The notes below the pieces were generated by a model. The model saw only the letters and a program-made list of their open reading frames with translations. It did not search any database and was not told the origin of the DNA. Both the position numbers and the translations under genes were made by a program. A stretch of DNA of 64,000 nucleotides from an uncultured Candidatus Saccharibacteria bacterium (lineage in GTDB: Bacteria; Patescibacteriota; Minisyncoccia; Phycocordibacterales; JACNGX01): contig CAZULS010000001.1 in assembly GCA_964621395.1 (NCBI GenBank), positions 615 to 64,614 on the forward strand, written 5' to 3'. Every line of letters starts with the position of its first letter. Within the stretch, counting starts at the first letter, position 1. Shown piece by piece: positions 1,262 through 42,759 of this stretch.

Positions 1262-1369
1262 TGTTTTTTGAGTATTCATGTATTGAGAATACCAAAAAAA
1301 CCCTTTTCTCACAATACCAAAATCCACAGAAAAATCCGCCGAAGCGGATTTTTCTGTGGTGCCAACAAC

Positions 1370-3154
1370 TTAGAACTCTGAATAATCAATACTATCGGGA
1401 CCGTCTTCAATATCAACAATTGCCGAAAGATCAAGAGTACACTGCGTCGTCCTCACAAGTCCGTCACCGTTTCCCGTCACCGTTACATTGTAGAGACTTT
1501 GTGTACCGGGATTTCCTGTGATTGTTGCAGTAAGGTCAGCACCGGTTGTGTATTCTCCCGACGTCAGTGTCGTATCGCCATCGAATTCAAGAGTAATGCT
1601 ATCCGGAAGAGACGGATCCACGTCAATTGAGAGACTCACCGGATCAGAAAATCCATCCTGGGAAACGACACTGACGTTGAGCGTGTCTGAAAGATTCTCA
1701 GACCCTCCCACTTCAATTTGCAAACCACTCTTATCTTTAGCAAGAGAGAAATCAGGGATAATCGTTGCCAAAACGGTCACTTCTTCCACATCAGACGACA
1801 TGCCATGATTCCCTTCACCGGTATCGTGTATATCATCACAGCCCGGGTCGTCTAAGTCTGTCCATCCATCATTGTCGTTGTCGATACCGTCAGAACACGT
1901 CGTGCTCGTCGTTACTAGTGTCTGAGCTGTATCATTTCCTCCTGCACCATAGCATGTGAGTGTATAAGTTGTACTCACTTCGGGAGACACACTATAACCT
2001 CCGCTGGCTGTACCAACATTTCCATCATACAGCCCATCTGTTCCACTCAGAGTACATATATTCGCATCATCAGCGTTCCATATGAGATCTGTGGAAGCAC
2101 CTACAGTAATGCCCTCAGGATCAGCGGTGAAGAAAGTGATGTCAGCGGGTTGAGAAGGAATCGTTGCCCCCCCTGACACACTCACACAAGCAAGAGGTCT
2201 TGATTTATTACAAGGCGTATCACCAGAATATGCATTACACTTTAGTTCACCGCCTCCCATATCTTGTGGATTATATTCAGGATCTGTAAGCCCCCTATCA
2301 GTATTACACGTTATCTCCGCAGGAATCTCAGGATGATATCCAGGATCATGAAAATCCCACGTCATACCATATGAATTCCCTGTACTAAAACATTCAGCAT
2401 TTTGATTATTAATCCACACCCATGCCCTGTCAGTTGTTGAATTTGCATACAGAGCATCTTCGGAAGAGGCAAATACATCCCATCCTGACTCTTCATGAAA
2501 TTCAAGCCAGTCCCAATCGGAACCAAATTCACTTTCACAATAACTGTTCCCCACAGCAGTACTGGTTATCGCAGAACCGAGAAAATCTGTATTTGTGATA
2601 GCGTATTCATACAACTGACTCCCTCCAAGTGTCATCTCTACATCTATGCTCTGCTGCACACTTCCCCCGAGCCCTATACATTCAAGGATATATGTCTTTT
2701 CTTCAATAATTGGATCAGTTGTTTCTTGATGAGTTCCGTCGGTAGCGGTTTTTGATCCCGACCAATCACCGGAAGCATTACAGGAGGTAGCGTTGGCAAC
2801 CGTCCATTCAAGCGTCGTTGTGAGACCATTTTCCACGTTCGAAGGATTAGCTATAAAAGTCAATGATGGTGCTGCTTCACATGAATCACCGTCCCAGCCG
2901 TACCCTGTATCACACGCAAACTCACATTTAGTGGCCGTGTCGGGGTCGGCATGTATCCAGGGTAAGTCAGAAGGGAGATCCTCTTCTTCTTCGGCATCGT
3001 GTCGGGAAGCGTTGGTGGGAATTGATCCGGTACAGGAATAGCTTCCTCCTGCTCCAGCTTGCACATGTTGCACGAGGATACCACTTCCTATAAACACAAA
3101 AAGGAATGTGAGAGCGGCAAGTATACGGGATAGTGTAAAACGAAATGTGATCAT
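1370..3154 (-). CDS. Secreted Cys-rich protein with a TSP3/dockerin-like acidic motif (TCSDGIDNDNDGWTDLDDPGC)
   Basis: N-terminal hydrophobic signal/TM (LAALTFLFVFIGSGILV). Many Cys residues. One CxDGxDNDxDG...C motif. Acidic stretches. Confidence 0.6.
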   Translation of the reverse strand: MITFRFTLSRILAALTFLFVFIGSGILVQHVQAGAGGSYSCTGSIPTNASRHDAEEEEDLPSDLPWIHADPDTATKCEFACDTGYGWDGDSCEAAPSLTFIANPSNVENGLTTTLEWTVANATSCNASGDWSGSKTATDGTHQETTDPIIEEKTYILECIGLGGSVQQSIDVEMTLGGSQLYEYAITNTDFLGSAITSTAVGNSYCESEFGSDWDWLEFHEESGWDVFASSEDALYANSTTDRAWVWINNQNAECFSTGNSYGMTWDFHDPGYHPEIPAEITCNTDRGLTDPEYNPQDMGGGELKCNAYSGDTPCNKSRPLACVSVSGGATIPSQPADITFFTADPEGITVGASTDLIWNADDANICTLSGTDGLYDGNVGTASGGYSVSPEVSTTYTLTCYGAGGNDTAQTLVTTSTTCSDGIDNDNDGWTDLDDPGCDDIHDTGEGNHGMSSDVEEVTVLATIIPDFSLAKDKSGLQIEVGGSENLSDTLNVSVVSQDGFSDPVSLSIDVDPSLPDSITLEFDGDTTLTSGEYTTGADLTATITGNPGTQSLYNVTVTGNGDGLVRTTQCTLDLSAIVDIEDGPDSIDYSEF

Positions 3155-3165
3155 ATGATTCCTAT

Positions 3166-3822
3166 TTATACTAAAGTGCTCCTACATGAAGACTTCCTTG
3201 TGACAACCATCGCAACAATACCGATAAGTAAGACAAGGGCAACAACGATGTCCGAAGAGGTGTTCCTTTCTCCTTCGGATAGCCCCGGTTCATATATTGT
3301 CCAAAAACCCAGAGCATATCCGTCGGGTGCATAGATTGTGACACTCACCTCCGGATCGGGGCAGTCGGCGGTAACAGGAAGAGAAAGTATGGGACGTTTA
3401 TCGGTAATAGGAAAAGAAATAACTGTTTTCTCACTACAACGAACAGAGCTCGCTGCGTCGGTGAGATACGCATTGAGAGAAAGCTCGGGAACGGCTTCAG
3501 CATACTGAAGAACGTCCGGTACCATGGGTGAATCCCAAGAAACAGTGAGTTGCGCATTTTGTCCTTGTGTATATGATTCTGTATCAAGAGTTACTCCAAG
3601 TGAGGTGATAGAGATATGAGCATCTGCTTCCTCAAGAGACTTCTGTGCGAGATACAAACGAAGTTCTTCTTTTTGGGATGCGGAGAGGAACGAGATATCT
3701 CCTTTTTCCTCCACTTCATCGAGGAAGAGGGGTCTCTCAAGAGCATATACGGGTACACCAAAGATACTACCCATGAGAAGAGCCAAGAATATGCCTTGTG
3801 TGAGTGCATGTGCTGTGTTCAT
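3166..3822 (-). CDS. Hypothetical exported protein with a C-terminal transmembrane anchor
   Basis: Signal-like N-terminus (FLALLMGSIFGVPVYA) and C-terminal hydrophobic helix (IVVALVLLIGIVAMVV). Same strand, 12 nt from the upstream gene. Confidence 0.5.
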   Translation of the reverse strand: MNTAHALTQGIFLALLMGSIFGVPVYALERPLFLDEVEEKGDISFLSASQKEELRLYLAQKSLEEADAHISITSLGVTLDTESYTQGQNAQLTVSWDSPMVPDVLQYAEAVPELSLNAYLTDAASSVRCSEKTVISFPITDKRPILSLPVTADCPDPEVSVTIYAPDGYALGFWTIYEPGLSEGERNTSSDIVVALVLLIGIVAMVVTRKSSCRSTLV

Positions 3823-3843
3823 AATGTAAGAGATAGAATATTA

Positions 3844-4803
3844 TTATTCGCTTGTATCATATGCGTCACTGCAGCCCCCATCATGCCCGTCGATATTGCC
3901 ATCCCTATCATTATCAACACCATCGGAACACTCAGGTAAGGTACTATTATCCTGGTCCCAACATTCGAGATAGAAAGAATCCGAATGTGTCACCGTCACG
4001 CTCTGTAAACCCGCACCCGGTGTTATCCATCCGCCCCACCCTTCCGTCTCTGACGATGCCCAACAAGAATACGCACCAACCGTATCCCATGAGATATTCA
4101 CGGATTCGTTCACAGCCACCTCTGCACTCGAAGTACCGTTGACATACAGCGAGACTTCAGGTGCTCCTCCCTCAGTGGTGTCAAAGACGCTTTCGCATCT
4201 TCCGTCGTCAAGATCAATATCGTCATCGTCATCGTTATCGATGCCATCGGTACATTCCGAAGTCGCACTCACACCAGATTGTCCGAAATAAATAGCACCA
4301 AATTCATCGGACCATGCATATCCCGAAAGAGTCCCGTCGGGGTTTATCGTAACTCCATAGGGCGAGCTATCTTGTGCGGTGCCGGAAAGATGAATCCACC
4401 CCTCATTGCCCCCGGCATTCACTCCCGCATCGGCTATGCCCACAAAGCGCGCCCATCCTTTAATGGTGTCACCTTCTCGATATGCCGCACATGTTCCTGA
4501 GGGACATCCGGTCAAATATCCGGCCATGTTATCAAAGGCAATGTAACCCATGTTCTCACTATAGGCATATCCCGAAAGATCGCCATCGTCTACGGGAATA
4601 GACACACTGTAGGAAATAGCGCCGCCACCGGTGGTATTGCTCATGCTTATCCACCCAATACCGGTGTTTATCCCGGCACCATCGTCGCTCCCACCCCACA
4701 ACCACCCATAGACGGAGGTATCGGCAGAGAGAAAAGTAGCACCAAAGAAAAGTACGGAAAGCGTGAGAAGTGCTATCAAACGTGTCTGTGAAAAATATTT
4801 CAT
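3844..4803 (-). CDS. Secreted protein with two ECxDGxDNDxDG...C acidic motifs and internal GYAxS..G.IxF repeats
   Basis: Signal peptide MKYFSQTRLIALLTLSVLFFGATFLSA. Motifs ECTDGIDNDDDDDIDLDDGRC and ECSDGVDNDRDGNIDGHDGGC. Confidence 0.6.
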   Translation of the reverse strand: MKYFSQTRLIALLTLSVLFFGATFLSADTSVYGWLWGGSDDGAGINTGIGWISMSNTTGGGAISYSVSIPVDDGDLSGYAYSENMGYIAFDNMAGYLTGCPSGTCAAYREGDTIKGWARFVGIADAGVNAGGNEGWIHLSGTAQDSSPYGVTINPDGTLSGYAWSDEFGAIYFGQSGVSATSECTDGIDNDDDDDIDLDDGRCESVFDTTEGGAPEVSLYVNGTSSAEVAVNESVNISWDTVGAYSCWASSETEGWGGWITPGAGLQSVTVTHSDSFYLECWDQDNSTLPECSDGVDNDRDGNIDGHDGGCSDAYDTSE

Positions 4804-4813
4804 AAAGAATGTA

Positions 4814-5356
4814 TTATTCTTCTACCCTATATCGCAACGTAATACGATCAGCAAGGATATGATCACTATCACTGAGCGTACCGGTAGATACTGAGACCTC
4901 ATACCCCTCTTTGAGATCATTTTTGCTGAGTGTTCGCATTTCAAAAGGCTTCGGAGGAGTTCCTCGGTATTCGGGATCACTCTCTATTGCCTCGGTATAG
5001 CGACTCATTGCTTCAGCATAGCTTTCAGTGCTCGAAACGCGAACATATTCAATGATGGCCGTCTCAGGCGTGATGGTATAGATGAGTGTATCGGGTGGAT
5101 TGTCCACACCGAAACGATCAGCATCCACAGCGAGAGTCAGAGTATCCCCTGAGAGCTCCGTAATGACCCCGGTCACTTCACTGGCAGGTACGCTTTTAAG
5201 GAGCATGGTCATTTCCGCCACATACGCGCGACGTGCGTCACGATGAGCCATGAAAAGAAAGGCACCGCACACGATAAGGACAATAAGAAGTGCTGAGAGA
5301 AAAATATTTTTGTTAGCGGAAAGTGAGGATGACATACTAGAAAGGAGGTTGATCAA
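4814..5356 (-). CDS. Hypothetical membrane-anchored protein (single N-terminal TM)
   Basis: N-terminal TM (FLSALLIVLIVCGAFLFMA). Overlaps the next gene by 20 nt, suggesting an operon. Confidence 0.5.
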   Translation of the reverse strand: MINLLSSMSSSLSANKNIFLSALLIVLIVCGAFLFMAHRDARRAYVAEMTMLLKSVPASEVTGVITELSGDTLTLAVDADRFGVDNPPDTLIYTITPETAIIEYVRVSSTESYAEAMSRYTEAIESDPEYRGTPPKPFEMRTLSKNDLKEGYEVSVSTGTLSDSDHILADRITLRYRVEE

Positions 5357-6080
5357 ATACGCCCCAAGAAGAACCTTTGTTTGCGTAACACTGCGGCAAG
5401 CTAGAGGTCGACAAGGCTTTGCAGCACACAGTGGTGTTCTGAGCTTTGGTACATTCTAATTCGCCCCTCACTATACTACCAGGCCATGAAGAATTCGAAG
5501 GATACGACCACGGCGTAAAGCTTGCACTTTCTACGCTCCAAGACCACGGCGTAAAGCTTGCAGAACGGCAGGACACGCTGCCATTACTAGCCTGTTTACA
5601 GCATTCCAATGAACCATACCCTTCGGAATCACAAGACCATGAATTAAAACCGTCACCACTTCCCCCCAAATCACTCGCCCATTCGCCGGAAGAACGAATA
5701 TATACATCATCGAAATTTGCCGTGCCACCACCGTAGGTATTCCCCCCAATCGACACGCCGTTTACCCAATCATTGAATCCATTGATGTAGAGTATTTCGC
5801 TGTCTTCACTGTATCGTCCGCCGATACTGCGCTTGTCAGCACTTGCTCCGTACCCGGCAAGGTATTGACTGTCTGAGGCATTGATACTGATAGTACCTGT
5901 TTTTGTTTGCGCTTGTGCGCCTGTAGTAAGTGGCGCGCCAACATTGTCCGCCGGAGGAAACGATGACGGCTCCGTCCATGCAGCCACATACTGAAGTCCT
6001 GCAGCAAGAAGCACACCTCCGAGAGCTGCGCCCAGAAGTCGTGTGGTGGATATAAGCTGTGTGGAAAGTGAGGATGGCAT
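5337..6080 (-). CDS. Hypothetical exported/anchored protein with a tandem SASFTPWSW repeat and a CC pair
   Basis: Hydrophobic N-terminus (LLGAALGGVLLAAGL). Repeat SASFTPWSWSVESASFTPWSY. Last (upstream-most) gene of the minus-strand surface-protein cluster. Confidence 0.5.
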   Translation of the reverse strand: MPSSLSTQLISTTRLLGAALGGVLLAAGLQYVAAWTEPSSFPPADNVGAPLTTGAQAQTKTGTISINASDSQYLAGYGASADKRSIGGRYSEDSEILYINGFNDWVNGVSIGGNTYGGGTANFDDVYIRSSGEWASDLGGSGDGFNSWSCDSEGYGSLECCKQASNGSVSCRSASFTPWSWSVESASFTPWSYPSNSSWPGSIVRGELECTKAQNTTVCCKALSTSSLPQCYANKGSSWGVFDQPPF

Positions 6081-6282
6081 ACAAAGAATATCGTCTTATG
6101 AATGGAAAGACGGTTTTAAACTATCGACTAATATATACGTGTATTATATCAATCTGTAATATCAGAGCAATTTGAGTATGTGGATAGTAGAACCAGTCTC
6201 ACTGAAAACGAAAAATATAAGGGGTTCGTATTCAAGAGCTGCGCTCGACGATTTTCAGTGAGCCTAGTTCTAGATTGAGTAA

Positions 6283-8214
6283 CTACTCCTCCACCGCCGC
6301 ATCATCGGCACTCACATTCGGGTCAGAAGAAAGATCAGTGTTGATATCACTATGGGACACAGAAATATTTGTATCGGTAAATGCGTCGTAGGCGCGCATG
6401 ACAATATCGGAGAACAGTACCGGACGAGAACCGACCTGAGTCACACTCGGAGTAAGCCCCACCTGAAACGCCGCTTCGGGGCCCGCCTCTTCCACGCCGG
6501 CACCAGCTTCAAGCGAGCCGATGGTCCAGGACACAGTACGGTTTGCGGCATTGTACGCAATATCGGCATACGACGGATTAACAGTACCTTTCCACTCCAC
6601 ACCTACGGGAAGTTTCCCTGAAACGGTTGTATTACGCAAATCGTTGGATGAGTTTACCGCCGAAAGCGCGATGGTGTATGTCGTTTCCTCTTCCGGTGTC
6701 GGCGGAATCGGTCCGATATTTGAAAACGGTCCTATGGAATGCAGCCCTCGGACGGCAATACGCATATCAGAAAAGACACGCACACTTCGCACAATAGCAT
6801 CCGAGTGTGACTCCATGACATCACCCTCCGCCTCGCGAATACCGCTTACATCAACTGAGAGGACGGTTTCGGGATTGCGAATACTCGTCCCCGAAACATC
6901 CACAAGCGCCTTTGAAGCGAAGTCAAATGAAAACATTCCCGATTCTCCCGGTTCAATTTCTTCAAGTCCCTTATACGTGTCGGTGCTCCAAAGAATCGTC
7001 CCTTTTTTTGAATCATAAAATCCATTTTTGGCATCAACACCATACTTATCAATCACATCACCGGAGAATGTGAGTTCGATCACCACATCGCGCAGCGGCA
7101 CGGTTGTGTTGTTGCGGTACGAAAGCGTCCCTCTCACCGCTTTCTCCGGGGCAATCACATAGCTGTCTTTCACCTCGCCTCCAAGCGCAAGCTGCATGCC
7201 AAGGAAGAGGTCACGCACGGCAATTGTCGTTTGGCTTTGATTATACATGACCGTCAGTTCTTCATGTTCGGCGGAATCAATCATGCCGACGCGCGCGCGA
7301 ATCGTTCGCTCATCATTATGCTCACCGCGAACAATGCCGCGAATGAGAATACTCGCATCACCGCCGGAAGGAATATCTCCCACATACCATACGGTATTTC
7401 CATACGACGGTTCGGGCTCGGCCGCAACCGGCTCAAAGCCAAAAGGGTACTCAAGAATCACCGCCACATCTTCAAGAAGCACATCAGTATTGGACACCAC
7501 CTCGATACCGATGTCAACCTCCTGTCCATTATTCACTTCATCGAGTGTCGAGAGTGTCATGCCGATTGGCGCCGAATCAATACGAATAGCATGCGACACC
7601 TCTTTGATAAACGTGGCACTCGAATTCGGCACACGATATTCCATGGCAATGCCAACACTCTTTTCGTCGTCCTCACTACCGAAGACCACACCTTGAATCA
7701 GCTCTTCTTTTGTCTCGCCCGGGGCAATCGAGCCAAGTGAACGATATTCCCGTGTGAGCTCTTCACCCGTCACATCATCAATGGCATGGAATCCGGGCGG
7801 ATACGTAATCACAATATTGGATCGTTCCAGCGTTTGGGAATTGTTATTGGTAATGGAAACCGTCAAATCCATATCATCGCCGCCGGAAATAGAAACCGGT
7901 CCTTCAAATGCAATATCCACACGATCTGAAGAAATTGTCACTCCCCCTCCGGAGAGAAGAAAAGTCGCAATACCAACGGCCGCGATAAAAAACACCACCG
8001 ACACACCAAAGACGACTTTCACAAGCCCTCCTTTTTTCTTGGAAGTGGGAAGTGCGGATTTTTCTCCCTCTTTCTTCCATTCCCGCGTAATGTCCCTGCC
8101 TCGCGAATAAAAAACGGGGCGAATCTCCCGCTCGCGTGAACGCCATTTCGGATCATACAGATTCTTTTTCACACGCTCAATACGTTCGGGCTTTTTCTGA
8201 GACTTCTTCTTCAT
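6283..8214 (-). CDS. Large membrane-anchored extracellular protein (644 aa), hypothetical
   Basis: Start trimmed to MKKKSQKKPE (ATG at 8214), because the upstream part of the ORF only translates the hairpin repeat (RIKCGMT). Basic N-terminus, then a TM (VVFGVSVVFFIAAVGIATFLL), then a long ectodomain with recurring YPPGF/YPFGFEP motifs. Confidence 0.6.
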   Translation of the reverse strand: MKKKSQKKPERIERVKKNLYDPKWRSREREIRPVFYSRGRDITREWKKEGEKSALPTSKKKGGLVKVVFGVSVVFFIAAVGIATFLLSGGGVTISSDRVDIAFEGPVSISGGDDMDLTVSITNNNSQTLERSNIVITYPPGFHAIDDVTGEELTREYRSLGSIAPGETKEELIQGVVFGSEDDEKSVGIAMEYRVPNSSATFIKEVSHAIRIDSAPIGMTLSTLDEVNNGQEVDIGIEVVSNTDVLLEDVAVILEYPFGFEPVAAEPEPSYGNTVWYVGDIPSGGDASILIRGIVRGEHNDERTIRARVGMIDSAEHEELTVMYNQSQTTIAVRDLFLGMQLALGGEVKDSYVIAPEKAVRGTLSYRNNTTVPLRDVVIELTFSGDVIDKYGVDAKNGFYDSKKGTILWSTDTYKGLEEIEPGESGMFSFDFASKALVDVSGTSIRNPETVLSVDVSGIREAEGDVMESHSDAIVRSVRVFSDMRIAVRGLHSIGPFSNIGPIPPTPEEETTYTIALSAVNSSNDLRNTTVSGKLPVGVEWKGTVNPSYADIAYNAANRTVSWTIGSLEAGAGVEEAGPEAAFQVGLTPSVTQVGSRPVLFSDIVMRAYDAFTDTNISVSHSDINTDLSSDPNVSADDAAVEE

Positions 8215-8304
8215 ACTATAATGATAGCAGACTGGTACGCTGGTTTCTAGTATCTGGTAGCCGGTTGCGCGCGCTATCGCGCGCTTCCACACAAACAAAA
8301 CCTT

Positions 8305-8383
8305 TGTCATCCCGCACTTGATGCGGGATCTAAAACGTAACGAAACCACTGACCCAAGATTCCGCATCAAGTGCGGAATGACA
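8305..8383. repeat. Two copies of the ~26-nt stem-loop element family (tgtcatcccgcaCTTGAtgcgggatc and gattccgcaTCAAGtgcggaatgaca)
   Basis: 8-bp stem with a CTTGA loop, flanked by TGTCAT...GATC. Other copies at 9272-9296, 9330-9355, 17562-17587, 17621-17646, 20575-20601, 20635-20660, 22627-22653, 25302-25327, 26674-26698, 35373-35398, 43440-43466, 51820-51846, 53007-53032, 54417-54442, 54478-54503. Confidence 0.8.
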
Positions 8384-8425
8384 GAAAAAAGTGATTTAAT
8401 CTGGAAACTTCACCGTTGTGTCGCA

Positions 8426-8475
8426 GCTCCTAAGGTTAAACCTTGGTATTTATACCAAGGTTTAACCTTAGGAGC
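8426..8475. repeat. Perfect 24+24-nt palindrome with an aaggtttaacctt core
   Basis: gctcctaaggttaaaccttggtat-tt-ataccaaggtttaaccttaggagc. Related palindromes at 16278-16333, 27398-27434 and 52028-52079. Confidence 0.8.
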
Positions 8476-8574
8476 TTTCGTACATTCGTATATATTCGTA
8501 CCATTTGTAGATTTGTATCTATTCGTATATTCGGAGTACCCGAGCTCTAAGCTAAAAGCTATCAGCTATAAGCT

Positions 8575-9123
8575 CTAAAGATGGCTTTCGGCAAGAGATG
8601 CCTGAACAGCTTCTTCTAAATGTGAAATTTCTTTTCCAGGAAGTACCCCTGTGGCATACTCCACAGCAACGCTTTCTTCTGCATATCCGAGTGCTGAAAG
8701 AATGGCATACTTTCCTGCAAGAAGCACATGCCTCTTTTCTTCCGCGCTTTCCGAATAAGAGATCAAGTCCATACTCATTGTGGCAACGACAAAAAGAAGT
8801 TCATTCCCCTCTTCACCTTTGATGAGCCTGCGGAGAAATGAGGAAAGTTCGGCGCAGTGCGCACAGCTCTCCAGTGCACACGCTTCCTTTCCTTTCGAAA
8901 AAATACCGGTAAGCGTCCATACATTCTTCCCGCGCACAATATCAATTGTCACATGTCGATATTCCGAAAGATGATATTTCATTTTTGAACCAATAAGACG
9001 AGAACCGCGAGCAACAACGCCGATAAGTCCAAAATCGGGTGTGAGTATATGAAGGAAACGATCGGCCTCTCCCGTGCCAACACTTGCGAGAATGATACCT
9101 TCAGTGTGGTAGATGTGATACAT
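8575..9123 (-). CDS. recO: DNA repair protein RecO (short form)
   Basis: N-terminal OB-fold signature TEGIILASVGTGEADRFLHILTPDFGLIGVVARGSRL. Cys cluster CALESCAHC. Confidence 0.6.
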   Translation of the reverse strand: MYHIYHTEGIILASVGTGEADRFLHILTPDFGLIGVVARGSRLIGSKMKYHLSEYRHVTIDIVRGKNVWTLTGIFSKGKEACALESCAHCAELSSFLRRLIKGEEGNELLFVVATMSMDLISYSESAEEKRHVLLAGKYAILSALGYAEESVAVEYATGVLPGKEISHLEEAVQASLAESHL

Positions 9124-9440
9124 GGTTATCGAGCTTATAGCTTTTAGCTGAGAGCTTATAGGAGAGAGGTTGTTTCGATGCTGTGGAACAGGTTGGAGGA
9201 TTTGTTAGTTTTTAGTTGGTAGTTGTTAGTCGGGCGCGGCTCCGCCACGCCCGTACATATCCCAAACCACAGTCATCCTGAACTTGATTCAGGATCTTCG
9301 CCATGTTATTTCTGAAAATTATTCGAGAAGATTCTGAATCAAGTTCAGAATGACACATAATTCACTTTAATCACAAAAGCGATATTCGTATATATTTGTA
9401 CCATTCGTAGTTTTGTACCTATTCGTAATTCGTAATATTC

Positions 9441-12400
9441 TTACCTCAAAGCGAAGCGCACCGTCTCATTCTCACCAAGTACCGCTTCCGTCGCGTCTTC
9501 AATTTCTTTCTCAAACACGATATTTCTGAGCGATGCTGTTTTCTGAATCATATCTTTGTATTCAGCGATGAGCGACTCAGCGATTGAATCAGCGGAAACA
9601 GCGAGTGTTACCACATCATCCGGCGATAGCCCCTTTGCTTTACGTGCATCTTGAATTGCACGCAAGAGTTCACGCACTTCCCCTTCGCGACGCAGATCAT
9701 CCGTGAGTTCTAAATCGAGACCTGTTCCATTCTCCGTCTTCGATTCGTCCACCACAATTTTCTTCACATTCACTTCATCTTTGATAAGTGCGGCATATCG
9801 CTCGTCGGAGACATACTCGCCCTTCTCGGCAACAAAAAGTGTCGAAAGCGGCTGGCGCACCTTCACCCCTTCGCGCTTGCGCACCAGAAGAGCGGAAGAC
9901 ACCACAGCGCGCACCTTTTCCATCGCGACAATCACCTCCTTTTCTTTCTTCCCCTCTTTCATCTCAATCCAGCTCTCCAAATGCACACTCTCTTTCTTTC
10001 CACCTGTGCGTCCGTACACACGCTCAGAAACAAACGGCGTAAAGGGTGCAAGGAGTATTGCCGTGGCACGAAGCACTTCTCCAAGTACTGCACGCGCCTC
10101 GCGTGCGTCGTTCCCCTCACCTTTCATACGCTCTCTGCTTCGACGCACATACCACGTGGAAAGATCATCCAGAAAGCCAACAAACGGTCTCGTCGCACGG
10201 TCGAGTTCATATGCATCCAAAGCTCGCGTCACATCACGCGACACCTCTCCAAGTCGCGCGAGAATCCATTGATCAAGCACGTTCTTGGGCGCGCCGCCTC
10301 CCGTGGCGCGTCCTTCTTGTCCTTCTTGCCCGGCGGTCCCTCGACCGCTTAGGGCCTCTCCCTTTGGGACGACAAGTTCATAGAAGGCCACCACATTCTC
10401 CAGTCGCGCAATAATTTTTTTATACACCTCATCAACACCCTTCTCGGAAAAGCGAAGTTCTTCACCGCGCACCGCCGGCGAATTCAAGAGATAGAAGCGA
10501 ATGGCATCGGCGCCATAGCGATCCGCCAGATTCATTGGATCAGGATAATTTTTCAGCTTCTTACTCATCTTCTTCCCATCTTCCGCCAAAATCAAACCGT
10601 TCACAATCACGTGGCGGTACGGCGACTCATCAAAAAGCCCGACGCCAAGCATAAGTAAGGTATAAAACCAACCGCGTGTTTGATCCAGTCCTTCAGCAAT
10701 AAAGTCTGCCGGAAAATATTTCTTGAATGATTCTTTCCCTTTCGCCGGATATCCAAATTGTGCAAACGGCATCGCACCGGATTCAAACCAGCAGTCAAAC
10801 ACATCGGGGATACGTGTGTAGGCAGTACCGTCTTTTTCAATTTCCACCTCATCAATATACGGACGATGCACATCAAGCTCGTACTCGGCATTGTGCGGCA
10901 AGGGCACAAAATCCAGCTTTCGATATGTGCCGGTAGATATAAAATCACCTTCTTGCTGTGCATATATCTCAACGATTTCATCTACCGTTCTCCCTTCTGC
11001 ACCTTCAAAGAGCATGCGCGTTGCACCATCATGCGTGACAAAAAGAACGTTTTTCCCCTCATATGTTTCCTCGCATCCATACAACACCTCACTGACTCGA
11101 CGCTTCACATCGACATTACTCTCCCCTTTCGGACGCGGCTTTGTCATCCATTCATGAGCGTTTGTAAAATGCTCATCATCAACACTAACCGGCTTCCCTT
11201 CAAAATCACCAAAGTCATGCTCGCGAATTCCTTCCTCAATAACAATTGCGTCTTCCGGAAATCCGAGACCTTCGGCAACAAGCTTAGCAGTCTCACGCGT
11301 ACGCACCAAGGGCGATGCGATAATCACATCCGGCATGAAGCCTTCTTTCTTCATTCTTTCCACCGCCTCTGTAATTTCTTCTTTTCCTTTCTCTGTTACA
11401 TGATGTTCGTTCTCCGGAAGACCGGAATAAATTCCTGCCACATTACTCTCCGCTTCACCATGACGCATCACTACATAGGTATTGCCGGCAGTCTTTGTAT
11501 ACTTTTTCAATGTTGCCACACTATCAACCACCAATCGCTCACCCCTCTCATTCTCCCACACAGGCAAGGGAGCCCCCCAGAAACGCTGACGAGAAAAATT
11601 CCAGTCCGGCGCACCTTCAAGGAGATTTGCAAAACGCGCCGAGCCAATCTTCTCCGGCACCCAGCCAATCTTTTTATTTTTCTTCAGCGCACGGTCCTTG
11701 AGCTTTTGAATATCAATAAACCACGCCTCTGTCGCATAATTCAGAAGTGGTGTATCACAACGCCAACAATGCGGATACGGGTGTTCATACTTTTCTTTCG
11801 CAAAAAAGGCGTTGTGTTCTTGCAGATACTTGATCACTGCAATATCGGTTGCAAGACGCTCTTTCTCATCATCACTTCTTGGCTTCACCGCCATACCGGA
11901 AAGCACCTCCACCGTATCCTTCACGATGCCCGTATCATCCACATGCTGCACAAACGGCAGATTATGTTTCTTCCCAAGTGTAAGATCGTCTTCACCAAAC
12001 GCCGGCGCAATGTGCACAATACCGGTTCCGTCTTCGGTTGTCACAAAATCACCCGCATAGATTTTCCATCCGTTTTCACGGTGTTCAAGATTCTCGTCGT
12101 CAGCGTAGTATGGGAAGAGTGGCTTATATGCTTTACCCACAAGCTCTCCTCCCTTCATCTCTCCCTCGACATCATATTCCTTTATACCTGCCTTCTCGAA
12201 CACATCTCCCACCCTCTCTTTGGCAACGATATATCGCGCACCACTCGCAAGGACAATCACATACTCAATATCCTCTCCCACAGCCAAAGCCACATTGCCC
12301 GGCAGTGTCCACGGCGTGGTAGTCCACGCGAGAACGTAAGTTCTCGTGTGCCCCGCGGAGCCTTGGCGGAGTAGGGCATCTCCATCTTCCCCACCATCAT

Positions 12401-13142
12401 CAACCAATTCAAACTTCGCAATCACCGACAAGTCCTTCACGTCCTTGTACCCTTGCGACACCTCATTATTCGAAAGCGTTGTCTCACATCGCGGGCAGAT
12501 ATGCATAGAACGATATCCTTTCGTGATGAGTCCCTTTTTATCGAGCTCAGAAAACGCCCACCATACCGATTCGGTGTATGAGGTATCCATCGTTTTATAC
12601 GCATGATCCATGTCGATAAATCGTCCCATGCGCGGCACGGTTCGCTTCCATTCCTCGTCGTAGCGCATCACACTTCCGCGCGCGCGTTCATTGAATTTCC
12701 CGATGCCATATTTCTCAACATCTTTTTTGTTTTCCAATTCGAGCTCTTCTTCAATCAACACCTCCACCGGCAATCCATGACAATCCCATCCCCATTGCCT
12801 GCGGACATGATTTCCCTGCATTGTTTTGTATCGCGGAATTGCATCCTTCATCGTCCCGGCCAAGAGATGACCATAGTGCGGTGTACCGGTCGCAAATGGA
12901 GGTCCATCATAAAACACAAACTCCTTGCCGCCCTCTGTCGCCTCAAGCGTGCGCTCAAAAATACGTTGCTGTCTCCAGAGCGCAAGTGTTTCTTCTTCTT
13001 TACGCGCAACGTCGGAGAGGGTGCGGTTCCCCTCCATGGCCTTGGCGACGGAGGGTGTCTCCTTTGTTGTATCTGCGTGAGAGGACATCTCATCTCCTTT
13101 TCCACAACCGGGAGAACATGTTTTTGGCACAGACTGACTCAT
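9441..13142 (-). CDS. ileS: Isoleucine--tRNA ligase carrying an inserted histidine-phosphatase (PGAM-type) domain
   Basis: HYGH (PHYGHLLAG) and KMSKS (KMSKKL) motifs. The C-terminal tRNA-binding region is present. About 190 aa between PDWNFSRQRFWGAPLPVWE and RIPDVFDCWFESG carry RHGEAESN...RTRETA...EHDFGDFEG...VTHDGATR. Confidence 0.9.
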   Translation of the reverse strand: MSQSVPKTCSPGCGKGDEMSSHADTTKETPSVAKAMEGNRTLSDVARKEEETLALWRQQRIFERTLEATEGGKEFVFYDGPPFATGTPHYGHLLAGTMKDAIPRYKTMQGNHVRRQWGWDCHGLPVEVLIEEELELENKKDVEKYGIGKFNERARGSVMRYDEEWKRTVPRMGRFIDMDHAYKTMDTSYTESVWWAFSELDKKGLITKGYRSMHICPRCETTLSNNEVSQGYKDVKDLSVIAKFELVDDGGEDGDALLRQGSAGHTRTYVLAWTTTPWTLPGNVALAVGEDIEYVIVLASGARYIVAKERVGDVFEKAGIKEYDVEGEMKGGELVGKAYKPLFPYYADDENLEHRENGWKIYAGDFVTTEDGTGIVHIAPAFGEDDLTLGKKHNLPFVQHVDDTGIVKDTVEVLSGMAVKPRSDDEKERLATDIAVIKYLQEHNAFFAKEKYEHPYPHCWRCDTPLLNYATEAWFIDIQKLKDRALKKNKKIGWVPEKIGSARFANLLEGAPDWNFSRQRFWGAPLPVWENERGERLVVDSVATLKKYTKTAGNTYVVMRHGEAESNVAGIYSGLPENEHHVTEKGKEEITEAVERMKKEGFMPDVIIASPLVRTRETAKLVAEGLGFPEDAIVIEEGIREHDFGDFEGKPVSVDDEHFTNAHEWMTKPRPKGESNVDVKRRVSEVLYGCEETYEGKNVLFVTHDGATRMLFEGAEGRTVDEIVEIYAQQEGDFISTGTYRKLDFVPLPHNAEYELDVHRPYIDEVEIEKDGTAYTRIPDVFDCWFESGAMPFAQFGYPAKGKESFKKYFPADFIAEGLDQTRGWFYTLLMLGVGLFDESPYRHVIVNGLILAEDGKKMSKKLKNYPDPMNLADRYGADAIRFYLLNSPAVRGEELRFSEKGVDEVYKKIIARLENVVAFYELVVPKGEALSGRGTAGQEGQEGRATGGGAPKNVLDQWILARLGEVSRDVTRALDAYELDRATRPFVGFLDDLSTWYVRRSRERMKGEGNDAREARAVLGEVLRATAILLAPFTPFVSERVYGRTGGKKESVHLESWIEMKEGKKEKEVIVAMEKVRAVVSSALLVRKREGVKVRQPLSTLFVAEKGEYVSDERYAALIKDEVNVKKIVVDESKTENGTGLDLELTDDLRREGEVRELLRAIQDARKAKGLSPDDVVTLAVSADSIAESLIAEYKDMIQKTASLRNIVFEKEIEDATEAVLGENETVRFALR

Positions 13143-13216
13143 ATACGCTGTACTATAGCATATTTTAGGAGATTAGTATGTTAGGAGAATAGGAGATTAA
13201 AGAAAAACAAAACTGT

Positions 13217-13285
13217 TGTCATCCCGCATTCCGTGCCGAGCACTTTTTTCACTTTAGTGAAAATGGTGCTTGGTGATGCGGAATC
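13217..13285. repeat. Compact copy of the composite MITE-like element (tgtcatcccgcat...ttttcactttagtgaaaa...gatgcggaatc)
   Basis: Terminal inverted repeats match the stem-loop family. The internal part is a cactttagtgaaa palindrome shared with the 130-nt copies. Confidence 0.6.
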
Positions 13286-13287
13286 TT

Positions 13288-13341
13288 ACAAAACCAAAGG
13301 TGAGCTTTGGTATGCATACCAAAGCTCACCTTTGGTTTTGT
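13288..13341. repeat. Perfect 25-bp-arm palindrome (acaaaaccaaaggtgagctttggtat-gc-ataccaaagctcacctttggttttgt)
   Basis: Seen directly. Lies in the divergent region between ileS and the plus-strand gene at 13491. A further GC hairpin gcgccccggatgac-ttc-gtcatccggggcgc sits at 13387-13417. Confidence 0.8.
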
Positions 13342-32258: not shown

Positions 32259-32534
32259 ATGAATCCGGACGAATCACCAAACATAACATTCGAGAGCGAA
32301 GATCATCAACAGCCGGTCCACTCAACCCAACCGCAGACACCCAAAATTGTGCGGCGGGTTATTAAATATTCTGGCGGATATGTGAAGAACGAGAAGCAGG
32401 CGACGTATATCCTTATTGGGTTTGTGGTGGTAGCAATTATTGTTACTTTTCTTTTTGTAAATGCAAGCAGAGATACTAGTTACACTGTGCGCCAACAAGA
32501 ACAAGCACCGACAGGATGGTCTTCGCAACAATGA
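32259..32534 (+). CDS. Small membrane protein upstream of the pilin gene
   Basis: Single TM (ATYILIGFVVVAIIVTFLFV). Ends immediately before the prepilin gene. Confidence 0.5.
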   Translation: MNPDESPNITFESEDHQQPVHSTQPQTPKIVRRVIKYSGGYVKNEKQATYILIGFVVVAIIVTFLFVNASRDTSYTVRQQEQAPTGWSSQQ

Positions 32535-32536
32535 TT

Positions 32537-33028
32537 ATGAGTAATAAGTTTTCAACAAGCGGAGGATTCACTCTGATAGAACTTTTGGTTGTTATCGCGA
32601 TCATCGGTGTTCTATCATCAGCTGTACTTGCTAGTCTAAACTCTGCCAGGCTAAAGGCAAACGATGCTCGGCGCATTTCTGATTTGCACCAGATTCAAAC
32701 GGCGCTTGAGCTATATTACGACTCGAGCAACAGTTATCCGAGCGGAAGTTTTGATTCACGTGTCGGTGGTGAGTGGACGACTTTTTCCGGTTATCTTTCG
32801 CCTGCATATATGCCGACGGTACCAGTTGACCCGAGAAACGGATCTGGCGAAGGAGCCATGTGCGGAAACTGCGGCGAATATTATTACAGTTCTACAGATG
32901 GGCAGAAATACGTAATTTCTACATATTTAGCTATTGATGGCTCTCTTACCACAAACTCAAATCAATACGGTCCATATCATTCAGTAACTTCTGGGTGTAC
33001 CCCATCGACATTTTGGGCTTGCGATTAA
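32537..33028 (+). CDS. Type IV pilin (prepilin with N-terminal methylation motif)
   Basis: MSNKFSTSGG|FTLIELLVVIAIIGVLSS leader and cleavage/methylation motif. The ORF track starts upstream at 32516 (MVFATMIM), so 32531/32537 are the likely true starts. Confidence 0.8.
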   Translation: MSNKFSTSGGFTLIELLVVIAIIGVLSSAVLASLNSARLKANDARRISDLHQIQTALELYYDSSNSYPSGSFDSRVGGEWTTFSGYLSPAYMPTVPVDPRNGSGEGAMCGNCGEYYYSSTDGQKYVISTYLAIDGSLTTNSNQYGPYHSVTSGCTPSTFWACD

Positions 33029-41486: not shown

Positions 41487-41626
41487 CCTCCGTACGGTAA
41501 CACATTACGGAATTTCGAGCGAAAAACGAGATGGAGCGCGCGCCATAACGAGTTATGGTAAGCGCGAAGCGAAGTTTTGTAGCCGAAATTCTGTGATGTG
41601 TGTACGGTTGTTGGTTGGGGATGGTA

Positions 41627-42709: not shown

Positions 42710-42759
42710 AATACATGTATTATACCCGAAACACCCGAGCACGAACACGTCTCTGTGCA

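What the first reader, a model, noticed from the sequence alone, without database searches (positions are those of the whole stretch)
1370..8214. Co-directional cluster of six secreted or membrane-anchored proteins carrying acidic Cys-bounded C-x-DG-x-DND-x-DG motifs
Six consecutive minus-strand genes (1370-8214) all have signal peptides or TM anchors, with short gaps or overlaps, so they look like one surface module. Two of them (1370-3154, 3844-4803) carry three copies of the motif Cys-x-DG-[IV]-DND-x-DG-x(2)-D-x(2)-D-x(0,1)-C. Examples: TCSDGIDNDNDGWTDLDDPGC, ECTDGIDNDDDDDIDLDDGRC, ECSDGVDNDRDGNIDGHDGGC. The motif resembles Ca-binding thrombospondin-type-3 or dockerin repeats. The neighbouring genes carry tandem short repeats (SASFTPWSW, GYAYSENMGYIAF) and YPPGF-type repeats in a 644-aa ectodomain protein. 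In a small-genome organism this could be an attachment or cell-cell interaction apparatus.
Basis: partly seen in the sequence, partly recalled or inferred. Interest (0 to 1): 0.55.

Follow-up and report, generated by a model that had tools for sequence, protein, structure and literature searches.

The report
Patescibacterial surface-protein cluster with calcium motifs
Six neighbouring genes of an ultrasmall (Patescibacteria) bacterium encode exported or membrane-anchored proteins; two of them carry a small acidic, disulfide-closed module that matches a known calcium-binding motif, and three belong to a large uncharacterised gene set that sits inside type IV pilus operons in some related bacteria, so the cluster is probably part of the cell's attachment equipment.

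Summary
Six co-directional minus-strand genes (1370-8214) all start with a signal peptide or a membrane anchor. The three motif copies exist exactly as quoted and nowhere else in the window; residue shuffles gave none.

The motif is a known element, not noise. It matches NCBIfam NF033662 (acidic double-disulfide repeat). A profile of 23 instances finds the teneurin-4 C-rich domain (PDB 7PLP) as its best solved relative. The invariant positions are that domain's Ca2+ ligands plus the C838-C857 disulfide. The thrombospondin-type-3 guess is essentially right. The dockerin guess is not supported.

The cluster is composite.
- g6 (DUF11/CLIPPER, membrane-anchored) is conserved beside RecO and IleRS in relatives.
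- g5-g4-g3 is a conserved Patescibacteria trio.
- g2 and g1 are variable extras.

The g3 family is very large (8,374 cluster representatives) and has no Pfam or NCBIfam model. A g5-family gene lies within three genes of it in 57 of 85 loci. In seven distant loci it sits inside or beside type IV pilus operons. Most members end in a family-specific C-terminal tag (W[KR]EVAP, or [FY]SEF as in g1).

Best reading: Ca2+-stabilised surface adhesion proteins, probably pilus-associated. Calcium binding and the pilus link are inferred, not shown.

The parts
1370..3154 (-). g1: 594-aa secreted multidomain protein. Signal peptide; Cys-containing N-terminal region; Ig-like domains at about aa 93-175 and 340-415; unique central region 180-340; acidic module; C-terminal beta-rich domain; ends in IDYSEF.
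   Evidence: signal peptide. (coverage of homologues: only the two Ig-like domains are widespread). (the Ig-like domains match a phage virion-protein PHROG). No Pfam family.
1814..1897 (-). Acidic disulfide module of g1 (aa 420-447, CSDGIDNDNDGWTDLDDPGCDDIHDTGE).
   Evidence: NF033662 E=8.1e-7, model positions 2-28 of 32. Member of profile A1, which hits teneurin-4 C-rich domain 7PLP.
1373..1390 (-). Extreme C-terminal tag IDYSEF of g1.
   Evidence: The same [FY][SEQ]E[FIY] ending occurs in g3-family and g1-like proteins of close relatives. Tags are found in 51/82 g3-family ORFs against 3/1132 other ORFs.
1324..1359 (-). Intrinsic-terminator-like hairpin directly after the g1 stop codon (16-bp stem, then a U-rich tail).
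   Evidence: Folding energy -27.8 kcal/mol, z = -5.6.
3166..3822 (-). g2: 218-aa protein with a signal peptide, a beta-rich ectodomain and a C-terminal TM anchor. Lineage-specific.
   Evidence: No homologue in 85 related loci apart from the identical contig L001. Weak similarity (E = 0.002) to the ectodomain-plus-TM part of the gene at the same position in L002.
3844..4803 (-). g3: 319-aa secreted protein. Conserved N-terminal GW-hairpin domain, acidic module, Ig-like domain, acidic module. It lacks the C-terminal tag that most family members carry.
4270..4722 (-). g3 N-terminal domain (aa 28-178), the hallmark of a very large Patescibacteria family.
   Evidence: 8,374 cluster representatives at E<=1e-3 and 5,638 at E<=1e-10. 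AlphaFold2 pLDDT above 90 over most of the domain. No Pfam or NCBIfam match. No PDB match by sequence profile. No Foldseek hit with E<=0.001.
4171..4254 (-). Acidic disulfide module 1 of g3 (aa 184-211, CTDGIDNDDDDDIDLDDGRCESVFDTTE).
   Evidence: This is the degenerate copy, with DD in place of DG.
3847..3930 (-). Acidic disulfide module 2 of g3 (aa 292-319, CSDGVDNDRDGNIDGHDGGCSDAYDTSE). It ends the protein.
   Evidence: NF033662 best stretch aa 290-313..
4814..5356 (-). g4: 173- to 180-aa bitopic membrane protein (N-terminal anchor plus a small beta domain). Member of a family that recurs next to g3 and g5.
   Evidence: Orthologues in L002, L004 and L006. A g4-family gene lies within 3 genes of g3 in 15/85 loci.
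5337..6080 (-). g5: 247-aa secreted protein of the 'AWTEP' family, with a variable Cys-rich C-terminal part that includes the local SASFTPWS[WY] duplication.
5901..5981 (-). Conserved start of mature g5 (A|WTEPSSFPPADNVGAPLTTGAQAQTKTG).
   Evidence: The same A-W-T-[EGD]-P-x3-PP-x2-N-[VIL]-x-AP-[IL]-N block follows the signal-peptide-like segment in about 60 g5-family ORFs of other loci.
6283..8214 (-). g6: 643-aa type II membrane protein. 60-aa basic cytoplasmic tail, TM helix within aa 61-95, ectodomain of Ig-like DUF11/CLIPPER-type domains, no cysteine.
   Evidence: Pfam DUF11 38.7 bits (cutoff 24.6), best stretch aa 504-573; NPCBM_assoc sub-threshold.. Orthologues lie next to RecO and IleRS in L004, L006, L008, L018 and L041.

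Best explanation
The region encodes cell-surface proteins of a Patescibacterium and has three layers.

(1) g5-g4-g3 is a conserved, lineage-wide trio: a secreted 'AWTEP' protein, a small membrane anchor and a secreted GW-hairpin-domain protein. I infer that it works with the type IV pilus, as non-pilin components displayed with or primed by minor pilins, in the way PilY1-type proteins are. The conserved parts (the g3 N-terminal domain, the extreme C-terminal tag of the family, the conserved mature N-terminus of g5) would handle docking and assembly. The variable middle and C-terminal parts would contact the target.

(2) g6 is a membrane-anchored stalk of DUF11/CLIPPER Ig-like domains. It belongs to a separate conserved neighbourhood (IleRS-RecO-g6) and is probably transcribed separately.

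(3) g2 and g1 are fast-evolving, lineage-specific exported proteins. g1 looks like a modular adhesin built from Ig-like domains.

The acidic Cys-bounded motif is a self-contained module of about 30 residues, placed between or after beta-sandwich domains. A single disulfide closes a D-x-D-x-D-G-x-x-D-x-x-D loop that most likely binds two (possibly three) Ca2+ ions, as in thrombospondin type 3 repeats and the teneurin C-rich domain. That would stiffen and stabilise the linker outside the cell.

Shown here: the sequence features, the family memberships, the synteny and the match to the solved Ca2+-binding domain. Inferred: Ca2+ binding itself, pilus association in this organism, and adhesion.
For: Motif:
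- NF033662 matches g1 and g3 at E about 1e-6. Proteins with 3 or more copies of the same unit pass its cutoff at 69-126 bits.
- Profile A1 of 23 instances finds teneurin-4 C-rich domain 7PLP_A as the best PDB hit (E = 1.4e-4), followed by other teneurins and then EF-hand proteins.
- The invariant columns C5, D10, D12, D14, D18, D21 and C24 of A1 align to C838, D843, D845, D847, D851, D854 and C857. In the 1.5 A structure these are Ca2+ ligands and the 1-3 disulfide. Two of the three Ca2+ sites there are described as thrombospondin-T3-like (PMC9058538).
- Seven of nine side-chain ligands are present in all three window copies (read directly from the sequences).
- The same core was tabulated for teneurins, a diatom glucanase, Volvox gametolysin and Pfam MopE (PMC3278476).
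- The module recurs in tandem arrays of 34-37 aa in other CPR and DPANN surface proteins.

Surface location: N-terminal signals or anchors in all six proteins; DUF11/CLIPPER in g6, a stalk domain of fibrillar adhesins (PMC12617251).

Transcription: a strong terminator lies only after g1. A hairpin and a -10-like TATAAT lie in the 202-nt gap between g6 and g5.

Conserved trio: a g5-family gene lies within 3 genes of a g3-family gene in 57/85 loci, and 69/75 g5-family genes in those loci are that close.

Pilus link: the g3-family gene is embedded in or adjacent to type IV pilus operons in L040, L067, L069, L073, L080, L081 and L085. Examples are PilB-pilin-PilT-PilC-pilin-PilD-g3-(vWA protein with the same tag)-four minor pilins-g5 in L081, and PilD-g3-four minor pilins in L073. 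The window organism has PilM and a type IV pilin.

Tag: present in 51/82 g3-family ORFs against 3/1132 other ORFs and in 90/109 further representatives. It is not confidently docked in cis in the AlphaFold2 model of a tagged member (pLDDT 54-60).
Against: - No experiment on any member was found; literature searches for the motif strings gave nothing.
- The window copies have one disulfide, not the three of the teneurin domain, and lack the equivalents of E835 and D856. The third Ca2+ site may therefore be missing.
- The AlphaFold2 models give only pLDDT 50-72 for the modules. The models hold no ions, so they say nothing about coordination.
- Pfam TSP_3 and dockerin models do not match.
- The pilus link is seen in only 7 of 85 loci. 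Several of these share synteny and so are not independent events. In the window and in most Moraniibacteriota the trio sits among housekeeping genes, about 25-35 kb from the pilin and PilM genes.
- The window g3 lacks the family tag.
- g5 and g3 have ordinary signal peptides, not prepilin leaders.
- Signal peptides were judged by simple rules only.
Confidence: 0.6

Rival explanations
1. General envelope proteins unrelated to pili. The trio and g6 would be structural parts of the Patescibacterial cell envelope (S-layer-like or wall-associated proteins) that are kept next to housekeeping genes. The occasional position in pilus operons would be incidental.
For: In most loci, including the window, the genes lie between tRNA synthetases, RecO, UvrA and a glycosyltransferase, not pilus genes. 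The g3 family is nearly ubiquitous and mostly short (300-400 aa). g6 is a membrane-anchored Ig-domain stalk.
Against: In seven loci from several classes the g3 gene sits precisely between PilD and the minor-pilin genes, or next to PilB/PilC, on the same strand. In L081 a vWA-domain protein, a domain type used by pilus adhesins, carries the same C-terminal tag as the g3-family protein next to it.
Confidence: 0.25
2. The acidic module is not a structural Ca2+ site. It would instead be a docking or ligand-binding element: a dockerin-like partner of a cohesin-like protein, a binder of basic ligands like LDL-receptor A modules, or a binder of copper as proposed for the MopE motif.
For: One of 23 instances gives a weak Pfam Cu-binding_MopE match (E = 0.12). 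The third teneurin Ca2+ site resembles LDL-receptor A modules, which use their acidic cage to hold ligands (PMC9058538). The modules often sit at the very C-terminus, just before the tag.
Against: No dockerin or cohesin match. The invariant positions are exactly the Ca2+ ligands of the solved relative. The His and Met residues expected for copper sites are absent. The modules occur between domains, as linkers do.
Confidence: 0.1
3. The motif is compositional noise in Asp-rich, low-complexity proteins, and the 'cluster' is a chance run of membrane proteins.
For: g1 and g3 are very acidic (net charge -82 and -43). One copy contains a DDDDD run, which Tandem Repeats Finder reports as a 6-nt repeat.
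Against: Zero matches in shuffles. A curated HMM matches. The positions are conserved across 23 instances from different proteins. The trio is syntenic in 57/85 loci.
Confidence: 0.02
4. The cluster is phage-derived (tail-fibre-like receptor-binding proteins) or a mobile island.
For: The g1 Ig-like domains match a PHROG of virion structural proteins. Some g5-family relatives carry tail-fibre-like GNVGIGT repeats.
Against: No other phage genes. G+C content is the same as the rest of the window. The chromosomal position is conserved across many genomes. Ig-like domains are shared widely between phages and cell-surface proteins.
Confidence: 0.03

Closest known systems
NCBIfam NF033662, acidic double-disulfide repeat
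   Same: The same repeat unit. The window copies align to model positions 2-28 of 32 at about 27-29 bits each. Relatives with 3-9 tandem copies score 69-126 bits.
   Different: g1 has one copy and g3 has two (one degenerate), used as isolated inter-domain modules rather than tandem arrays. Both proteins therefore fall below the whole-protein cutoff of 41 bits. Each unit seen here has two cysteines (one disulfide). I found no published function for the family.
Teneurin C-rich domain (PDB 7PLP; Meijer et al. 2022, PMC9058538)
   Same: Best solved relative of the motif profile (E = 1.4e-4). C-x-D-x2-D-N-D-x-D-G-x2-D-x2-D-x2-C is shared. Seven of nine Ca2+-ligand side chains and the C838-C857 disulfide are conserved.
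   Different: The teneurin domain has six cysteines (three disulfides), a conotoxin-like C-terminal extension and three Ca2+ sites. The bacterial module has one disulfide, lacks the E835 and D856 equivalents, and has its own D-T-x-E tail. The host protein and organism are entirely different.
Thrombospondin type 3 repeats (DxDxDGxxDxxD; PDB 1UX6) and the general DxDxDG calcium loop
   Same: Same spacing of acidic ligands. In the teneurin structure, the two sites built by this stretch are described as T3-like. A few instances give weak EF-hand Pfam matches.
   Different: No match to Pfam TSP_3 at E<=10. The cysteine placement and repeat length differ.
Pfam PF11617, Cu-binding_MopE (putative metal-binding motif)
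   Same: C-x-DG-[IV]-D-N-[DN]-C-DG core, listed beside the teneurin core by Tucker et al. 2012.
   Different: Only 1 of 23 instances matches, at E = 0.12. There is no match for g1 or g3 as whole proteins at E<=1. The extra Cys of the MopE motif is absent.
DUF11 / CLIPPER domain (PF01345; PDB 9IFR; PMC12617251)
   Same: g6 passes the Pfam threshold. Like CLIPPER proteins, it is a surface protein built of repeated Ig-like domains.
   Different: g6 is anchored by an N-terminal TM helix with a long basic cytoplasmic tail, and it has no sorting motif. Whether it has the Lys-Asp-Asn isopeptide triad was not tested. There is no direct PDB sequence hit.
[quoted passage not shown] M. xanthus PilY1, PMC7541494; S. 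sanguinis PilB, PMC8179133; Saccharibacteria PilX1/PilX2, PMC11623550)
   Same: Large exported proteins without a prepilin leader, encoded beside the four core minor pilins. PilY1 binds calcium, according to the Saccharibacteria paper's citations. The proposed role is pilus-tip adhesion.
   Different: No sequence or fold similarity was detected. The g3 N-terminal domain matches nothing solved. In the window the genes are not next to pilus genes. The C-terminal tag has no described counterpart.

Membership tests
NCBIfam NF033662 acid_disulf_rpt | Match of the repeat unit to the HMM | tested here: met
   g1 E = 8.1e-7, aa 415-441 against model positions 2-28 of 32. g3 E = 6.9e-7, two stretches.
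NCBIfam NF033662 acid_disulf_rpt | Whole-protein score at or above the curated cutoff (41 bits) | tested here: not met
   28.7 and 28.9 bits. Relatives with 3 or more copies reach 69-126 bits, so the shortfall reflects copy number.
Teneurin C-rich domain | Acidic Ca2+ ligands E835, D840, D843, N844, D845, D847, D851, D854, D856 | tested here: inconclusive
   Seven of nine are present in all three copies; the E835 and D856 equivalents are absent (alignment, ligand list).
Teneurin C-rich domain | Six cysteines forming three disulfides (1-3, 2-5, 4-6) | tested here: not met
   Each module has only two cysteines, aligned to C838 and C857.
Teneurin C-rich domain | Ca2+ actually bound | not testable with these tools
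   The AlphaFold2 models hold no ions, and the modules have pLDDT 50-72.
Thrombospondin type 3 repeat (Pfam TSP_3) | Match to the family HMM | tested here: not met
   No TSP_3 hit for g1 or g3 at E<=1, nor for 23 isolated modules at E<=10. The DxDxDGxxDxxD spacing is present by inspection.
Dockerin (Pfam Dockerin_1) | Match to the family HMM; paired EF-hand-like loops with helices | tested here: not met
   No hit. The model shows no helices in the modules.
Pfam Cu-binding_MopE PF11617 | Match to the family HMM | tested here: not met
   One of 23 modules matches at E = 0.12. None for the whole proteins.
DUF11 / CLIPPER (PF01345) | Score above the Pfam gathering threshold | tested here: met
   g6: 38.7 bits against 24.6, two stretches.
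DUF11 / CLIPPER (PF01345) | Lys-Asp-Asn intramolecular isopeptide triad | not tested
   No structure was predicted for g6. The paper notes that many DUF11 domains lack the triad.
CARDB / NPCBM_assoc Ig-like domains | Match to the family HMM | tested here: not met
   NPCBM_assoc 21.0 bits, below the 24.4 cutoff. No CARDB hit.
Type IV pilus non-pilin accessory proteins (PilY1-like) | Encoded in the minor-pilin operon | tested here: inconclusive
   True for g3-family genes in L067, L069, L073, L081 and L085, and near PilB/C/D in L040 and L080. Not true in the window or in about 78 other loci.
Type IV pilus non-pilin accessory proteins (PilY1-like) | Sequence or fold similarity to PilY1 or PilC | tested here: not met
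Type IV pilins | Prepilin leader G|F-T-L-I-E and N_methyl motif | tested here: not met
   None of g1-g6 has it. The only match in the window is the pilin at 32516-33028.

The most novel reading that the evidence does not exclude
The g3 family (GW-hairpin domain plus an extreme C-terminal W[KR]EVAP or [FY]SEF tag) and the g5 'AWTEP' family together form a previously undescribed accessory system of Patescibacterial type IV pili. The short C-terminal tag has no following TM helix, is shared by unrelated proteins of one genome (g3-like and g1-like in L002; g3-like and a vWA protein in L081) and differs between lineages. It would be a new kind of assembly or sorting signal that loads interchangeable adhesin modules onto the minor-pilin tip complex or another envelope receptor. 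The Ca2+ modules would stiffen the displayed domains.
Probability: 0.3. Interest if true: 0.75.

Novelty: new variant of a known kind. Interest (0 to 1): 0.5.

Why it matters
Patescibacteria make up a large share of bacterial diversity, and the cultivated ones live attached to other microbes. How they recognise and hold their hosts is largely unknown (PMC11623550, abstract). This cluster points to concrete candidates:

- a secreted-protein family with more than 8,000 cluster representatives and no Pfam or NCBIfam model;
- its constant partner family;
- a family-specific C-terminal tag;
- a gene-context link to the type IV pilus, the one structure already shown to matter for host binding in Saccharibacteria.

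[quoted passage not shown] That bears on the proposed prokaryotic ancestry of teneurin domains.

The motif itself is already catalogued, so the finding as first stated is of moderate interest. The added value lies in the gene families around it.

Tried and rejected
- Single-sequence PDB searches with a module, g1 and g6 gave nothing. Only the 23-instance profile reached teneurin.
- The Pfam scan gave nothing for g1-g5.
- NCBIfam gave only the repeat.
- PHROGs gave only an Ig-like match for g1.
- Foldseek of the g3 model against the PDB gave no hit with E<=0.001. Against viral structures, only the Big_2-like middle domain of the relative P0022 matched.
- The word-indexed homologue search for g5 found only 6 proteins. 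The family became visible only through jackhmmer on the fetched loci.
- The g1 homologue search mostly returned unrelated proteins that share its Ig-like domain, so I ran no further search on g1.
- Literature searches for the repeat name and for the tag and motif strings found nothing relevant except the teneurin table.
- Tandem Repeats Finder sees no DNA-level repeat behind the protein repeats, except the GAC/GAT run of the DDDDD stretch.
- I considered AWTEP proteins as unusual pilins and rejected it. The hydrophobic segment precedes an AXA-type site, which is the signal-peptidase I pattern, not a prepilin leader.
- I considered that the C-terminal tag docks back onto the N-terminal domain. 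The AlphaFold2 model of P0022 gives it low confidence, which argues against this weakly but does not exclude it.

Full report
THE OBSERVATION

The window's first 8.2 kb holds six consecutive minus-strand ORFs:
- g1, 1370-3154
- g2, 3166-3822
- g3, 3844-4803
- g4, 4814-5356 (or from the ATG at 5335, as called on the identical public contig L001)
- g5, 5337-6080
- g6, 6283-8214 (the ATG start is the one shared with the orthologue in L002)

Gaps between g5, g4, g3, g2 and g1 are 0-21 nt. The g6-g5 gap is 202 nt.

All six proteins begin with a hydrophobic segment. g1, g2, g3 and g5 have AXA-type signal-peptidase sites. g4 has an uncleaved anchor. g2 also has a C-terminal TM helix. g6 has a 60-residue Lys/Arg-rich tail before its TM helix, which is the type II membrane topology. 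These are rule-of-thumb predictions, because SignalP and TMHMM were not available.

The three quoted motif copies are present exactly, at g1 aa 420 and g3 aa 184 and 292. They occur nowhere else in the six-frame translation of the 64 kb window. Residue shuffles never produced a match, even when only the very acidic g1 and g3 sequences were shuffled against a loose pattern. The copies share 15-17 of 28-29 residues but only 57-60% of nucleotides, and they use different codons at most identical residues. They are therefore old copies kept by selection on the protein.

WHAT THE MOTIF IS

It matches a curated NCBIfam repeat, NF033662 'acidic double-disulfide repeat', at E about 1e-6 over model positions 2-28 of 32. 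Both proteins stay under the whole-protein cutoff (about 29 against 41 bits). This is only because they have one or two copies: relatives with three to nine tandem copies score 69-126 bits.

I collected 23 instances from g1, g3 and their homologues. The consensus is C-S-D-G-x-D-N-D-G-D-G-x-I-D-x-x-D-P-G-C, followed by a D-x-x-E tail. Both cysteines and five aspartates are invariant.

A profile of these instances finds the teneurin-4 C-rich domain crystal structure 7PLP as the best solved match (E = 1.4e-4). Other teneurins follow, and then EF-hand proteins. In that 1.5 A structure three Ca2+ ions are held by E835, D840, D843, N844, D845, D847, D851, D854 and D856. C838-C857 is one of three disulfides, and two of the sites are described as thrombospondin-type-3-like (PMC9058538).

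The invariant bacterial positions align exactly to C838, D843, D845, D847, D851, D854 and C857. D840 and N844 are also present in all three window copies. The equivalents of E835, D856 and the other four cysteines are missing. The same core had been tabulated for teneurins, a diatom enzyme, Volvox gametolysin and Pfam MopE (PMC3278476).

The Pfam TSP_3, dockerin and MopE models do not match.

Calcium binding is inferred from ligand conservation and was not shown. The AlphaFold2 model gives the modules only pLDDT 50-72 and contains no ions.

The module is mobile. Only 12 of 120 g3 homologues carry it, yet it appears in unrelated secreted proteins of CPR bacteria and a Woesearchaeote, sometimes next to glycoside hydrolase domains. 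In g1 and g3 it sits between or after beta-sandwich domains, which fits a Ca2+-stiffened linker.

WHAT THE GENES ARE

g6 is the only protein with a Pfam family. It matches DUF11, recently renamed CLIPPER, an Ig-like stalk domain of fibrillar adhesins (PMC12617251).

g3 has a 150-residue N-terminal domain made of aromatic hairpins (GWxWG..., GYAYSENMGYIAF, GWARF..., GYAWSDEFGAIYF). AlphaFold2 models it with pLDDT above 90. It has no match in Pfam, NCBIfam or PDB sequences, and no Foldseek PDB hit with E<=0.001. A profile search of 1.84 billion cluster representatives found 8,374 relatives at E<=1e-3 and 5,638 at E<=1e-10, mostly 300-400 aa.

g5 belongs to a family defined by a conserved start of the mature protein, A|W-T-[EGD]-P-x3-P-P-x2-N-[VIL]-x-A-P-[IL]-N-x-G-x3-Q-x-K-x-G, followed by very variable C-terminal parts.

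g4 is a small anchored protein with recognisable orthologues.

g2 is lineage-specific.

g1 combines two copies of a widespread Ig-like domain with unique central and C-terminal regions.

SYNTENY

I fetched 80 loci from species-representative genomes, all of them Patescibacteria MAGs, plus five from metagenome look-ups. I called ORFs and classified them with jackhmmer.
- A g5-family gene lies within three genes of the g3-family gene in 57 of 85 loci.
- 69 of the 75 g5-family genes in these loci are that close.
- Small anchored proteins, including g4-like ones, usually lie between them.

In many Moraniibacteriota the order is g5/g4/g3 - ArgRS - glycosyltransferase - IleRS - RecO - g6. In the window it is ArgRS - IleRS - RecO - g6 - g5 - g4 - g3 - g2 - g1 - GlyRS. 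So g6 belongs to a different conserved neighbourhood and has been brought next to the trio here.

A 16-bp-stem terminator follows g1. A hairpin and a TATAAT-like box lie in the g6-g5 gap. g5-g1 therefore look like one transcription unit, with g6 probably separate.

Close relatives (L002, L003) keep g6, g5, g4 and g3, but they carry different genes in place of g2 and g1. These share only the Ig-like domain, acidic modules and the same C-terminal ending.

A LINK TO TYPE IV PILI

In seven of the more distant loci the g3-family gene is inside or beside a type IV pilus operon.
- In L081 the order is PilB, pilin, PilT, PilC, pilin, PilD, a small TM protein, g3-family, two TM proteins, a vWA-domain protein, four minor pilins, g5-family.
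- In L073 it is PilM ... PilB, PilT, PilC, pilin, PilD, g3-family, four minor pilins.
- L069, L085 and L067 show g3-family followed directly by minor pilins.
- L040 and L080 have it next to PilB/T/C/D or PilB/C.

This is the position occupied by PilY1-type non-pilin proteins in other bacteria (PMC7541494, listed). It also recalls the Saccharibacterial PilX proteins, which lack prepilin leaders and are proposed tip adhesins (PMC11623550).

The window organism has PilM (41627-42817) and a pilin with the N-methylation motif (32516-33028), but the cluster is not adjacent to them. The link is therefore a lead from gene context in a minority of lineages. Several of those share synteny, so they are not independent events.

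A C-TERMINAL TAG (not part of the original finding)

Most g3-family proteins end in [NG]-W-[KR]-E-[VI]-[AS]-P, optionally with one or two more residues. A minority end in [FY]-[SEQ]-E-[FIY]. In the fetched loci the tag is present in 51 of 82 complete g3-family ORFs and in 3 of 1,132 other ORFs. Those three are the g1-like proteins of L002 and L003, which end ...IDFSEF like their g3 neighbour, and the vWA protein of L081, which ends ...WKEITPF like its g3 neighbour.

In the window, g1 ends ...IDYSEF, while g3 stops right after its second acidic module and has no tag.

No TM helix follows the tag, so it is not a sortase- or exosortase-type signal. In the AlphaFold2 model of the tagged member P0022 the last 60 residues have pLDDT 54-60, so there is no confident docking in cis. 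I found no mention of these strings in the searchable literature.

INTERPRETATION

The best-supported reading is a set of surface proteins:
- a conserved, probably pilus-associated trio (g5-g4-g3);
- a membrane-anchored CLIPPER stalk protein (g6);
- variable adhesin-like proteins (g2, g1).

Ca2+-binding single-disulfide modules would stiffen the junctions between domains. I put about 0.6 on this composite: roughly 0.75-0.8 for Ca2+ binding by the module, about 0.85 for surface location, and about 0.4-0.45 for pilus association.

The main rival is a general envelope role unrelated to pili (0.25). Metal or ligand binding other than structural Ca2+ (0.1), phage origin (0.03) and compositional noise (0.02) are less likely, for the reasons given under the rivals.

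NOVELTY

The motif is already catalogued (NF033662), and its calcium chemistry is known from teneurins and thrombospondins. DUF11/CLIPPER is also known. As far as I could search, the following are not described:
- the g3 and g5 families;
- their constant pairing;
- their placement in pilus operons;
- the family-specific C-terminal tag.

I therefore class the whole as a new variant of a known kind (surface adhesion / pilus accessory proteins) and rate interest at 0.5. The more novel reading, a new tag-based assembly system for pilus-associated adhesins in Patescibacteria, gets 0.3 probability and 0.75 interest if true.

Noticed in passing
window 1373-1390 (g1 C-terminus); L002 4553-5458 and 7564-8556; L081 9935-11311 and 12474-14531; proteins P0005-P0120 and P0247-P0355: Extreme C-terminal tag with no TM helix after it. 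W[KR]E[VI][AS]P(x) ends most g3-family proteins, and [FY][SEQ]E[FIY] ends a minority, including g1. It occurs in 51/82 family ORFs against 3/1132 others. Unrelated proteins of the same locus share it. It may be a new sorting or assembly signal.
   Followed up: partly
L081 1340-18841; L073 about 8400-13300; L069 9869-13321; L085 6445-13376; L040; L080; L067: g3-family and g5-family genes are embedded in type IV pilus operons, between prepilin peptidase PilD and four minor-pilin genes, or next to PilB/PilC. In L081 a vWA-domain protein with the same C-terminal tag lies alongside.
   Followed up: partly
window 9441-13142 (-): The isoleucyl-tRNA synthetase is 1,233 aa because a complete histidine-phosphatase (His_Phos_1) domain, aa 557-723, is inserted in the catalytic domain. 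IleRS of related loci is 955-1,061 aa.
   Followed up: no
window 8300-8480 (intergenic, RecO to g6): Two very stable inverted repeats lie upstream of g6. One is a perfect 24-bp-stem hairpin at 8424-8471 (-42.7 kcal/mol, z = -12.5). The other is a 22-bp-stem long hairpin at 8307-8383 (-45.9 kcal/mol, z = -8.8). Short AT-rich tandem repeats lie at 8477-8578. No Rfam family reached its gathering score. They could be a terminator plus a regulatory or mobile element.
   Followed up: partly
window 40395-42817 (-) and 32516-33028 (+): Type IV pilus genes: PilM (41627-42817), followed by two small ORFs that could be PilN/PilO-like (not tested), and a separate pilin gene with the N-methylation motif.
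   Followed up: partly
window 62428-63909 (-): A second DUF11/DUF7507 (CLIPPER-type) protein with an N-terminal fibronectin-like, purple-acid-phosphatase-N-type domain. This is another probable surface protein.
   Followed up: no
window 5502-5564 (-), g5 aa 173-193: Local duplication SASFTPWSW / SASFTPWSY (22/27 nt identical) in the variable Cys-rich tail of g5. It is absent from the six closest homologues.
   Followed up: yes
L003 5064-7679 versus L002 5941-7389 plus 7564-8556: In two near-identical relatives, the genes at the g2/g1 position are one 871-aa ORF in one assembly and two ORFs (482 and 330 aa) in the other. This suggests a frameshift, an assembly difference or on/off variation in the variable adhesin-like gene.
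   Followed up: no
window 54567-55397 (+): A 276-aa protein with a sub-threshold Lamin Tail Domain match. LTD domains also occur in several g1 homologues, so this is another candidate surface protein.
   Followed up: no
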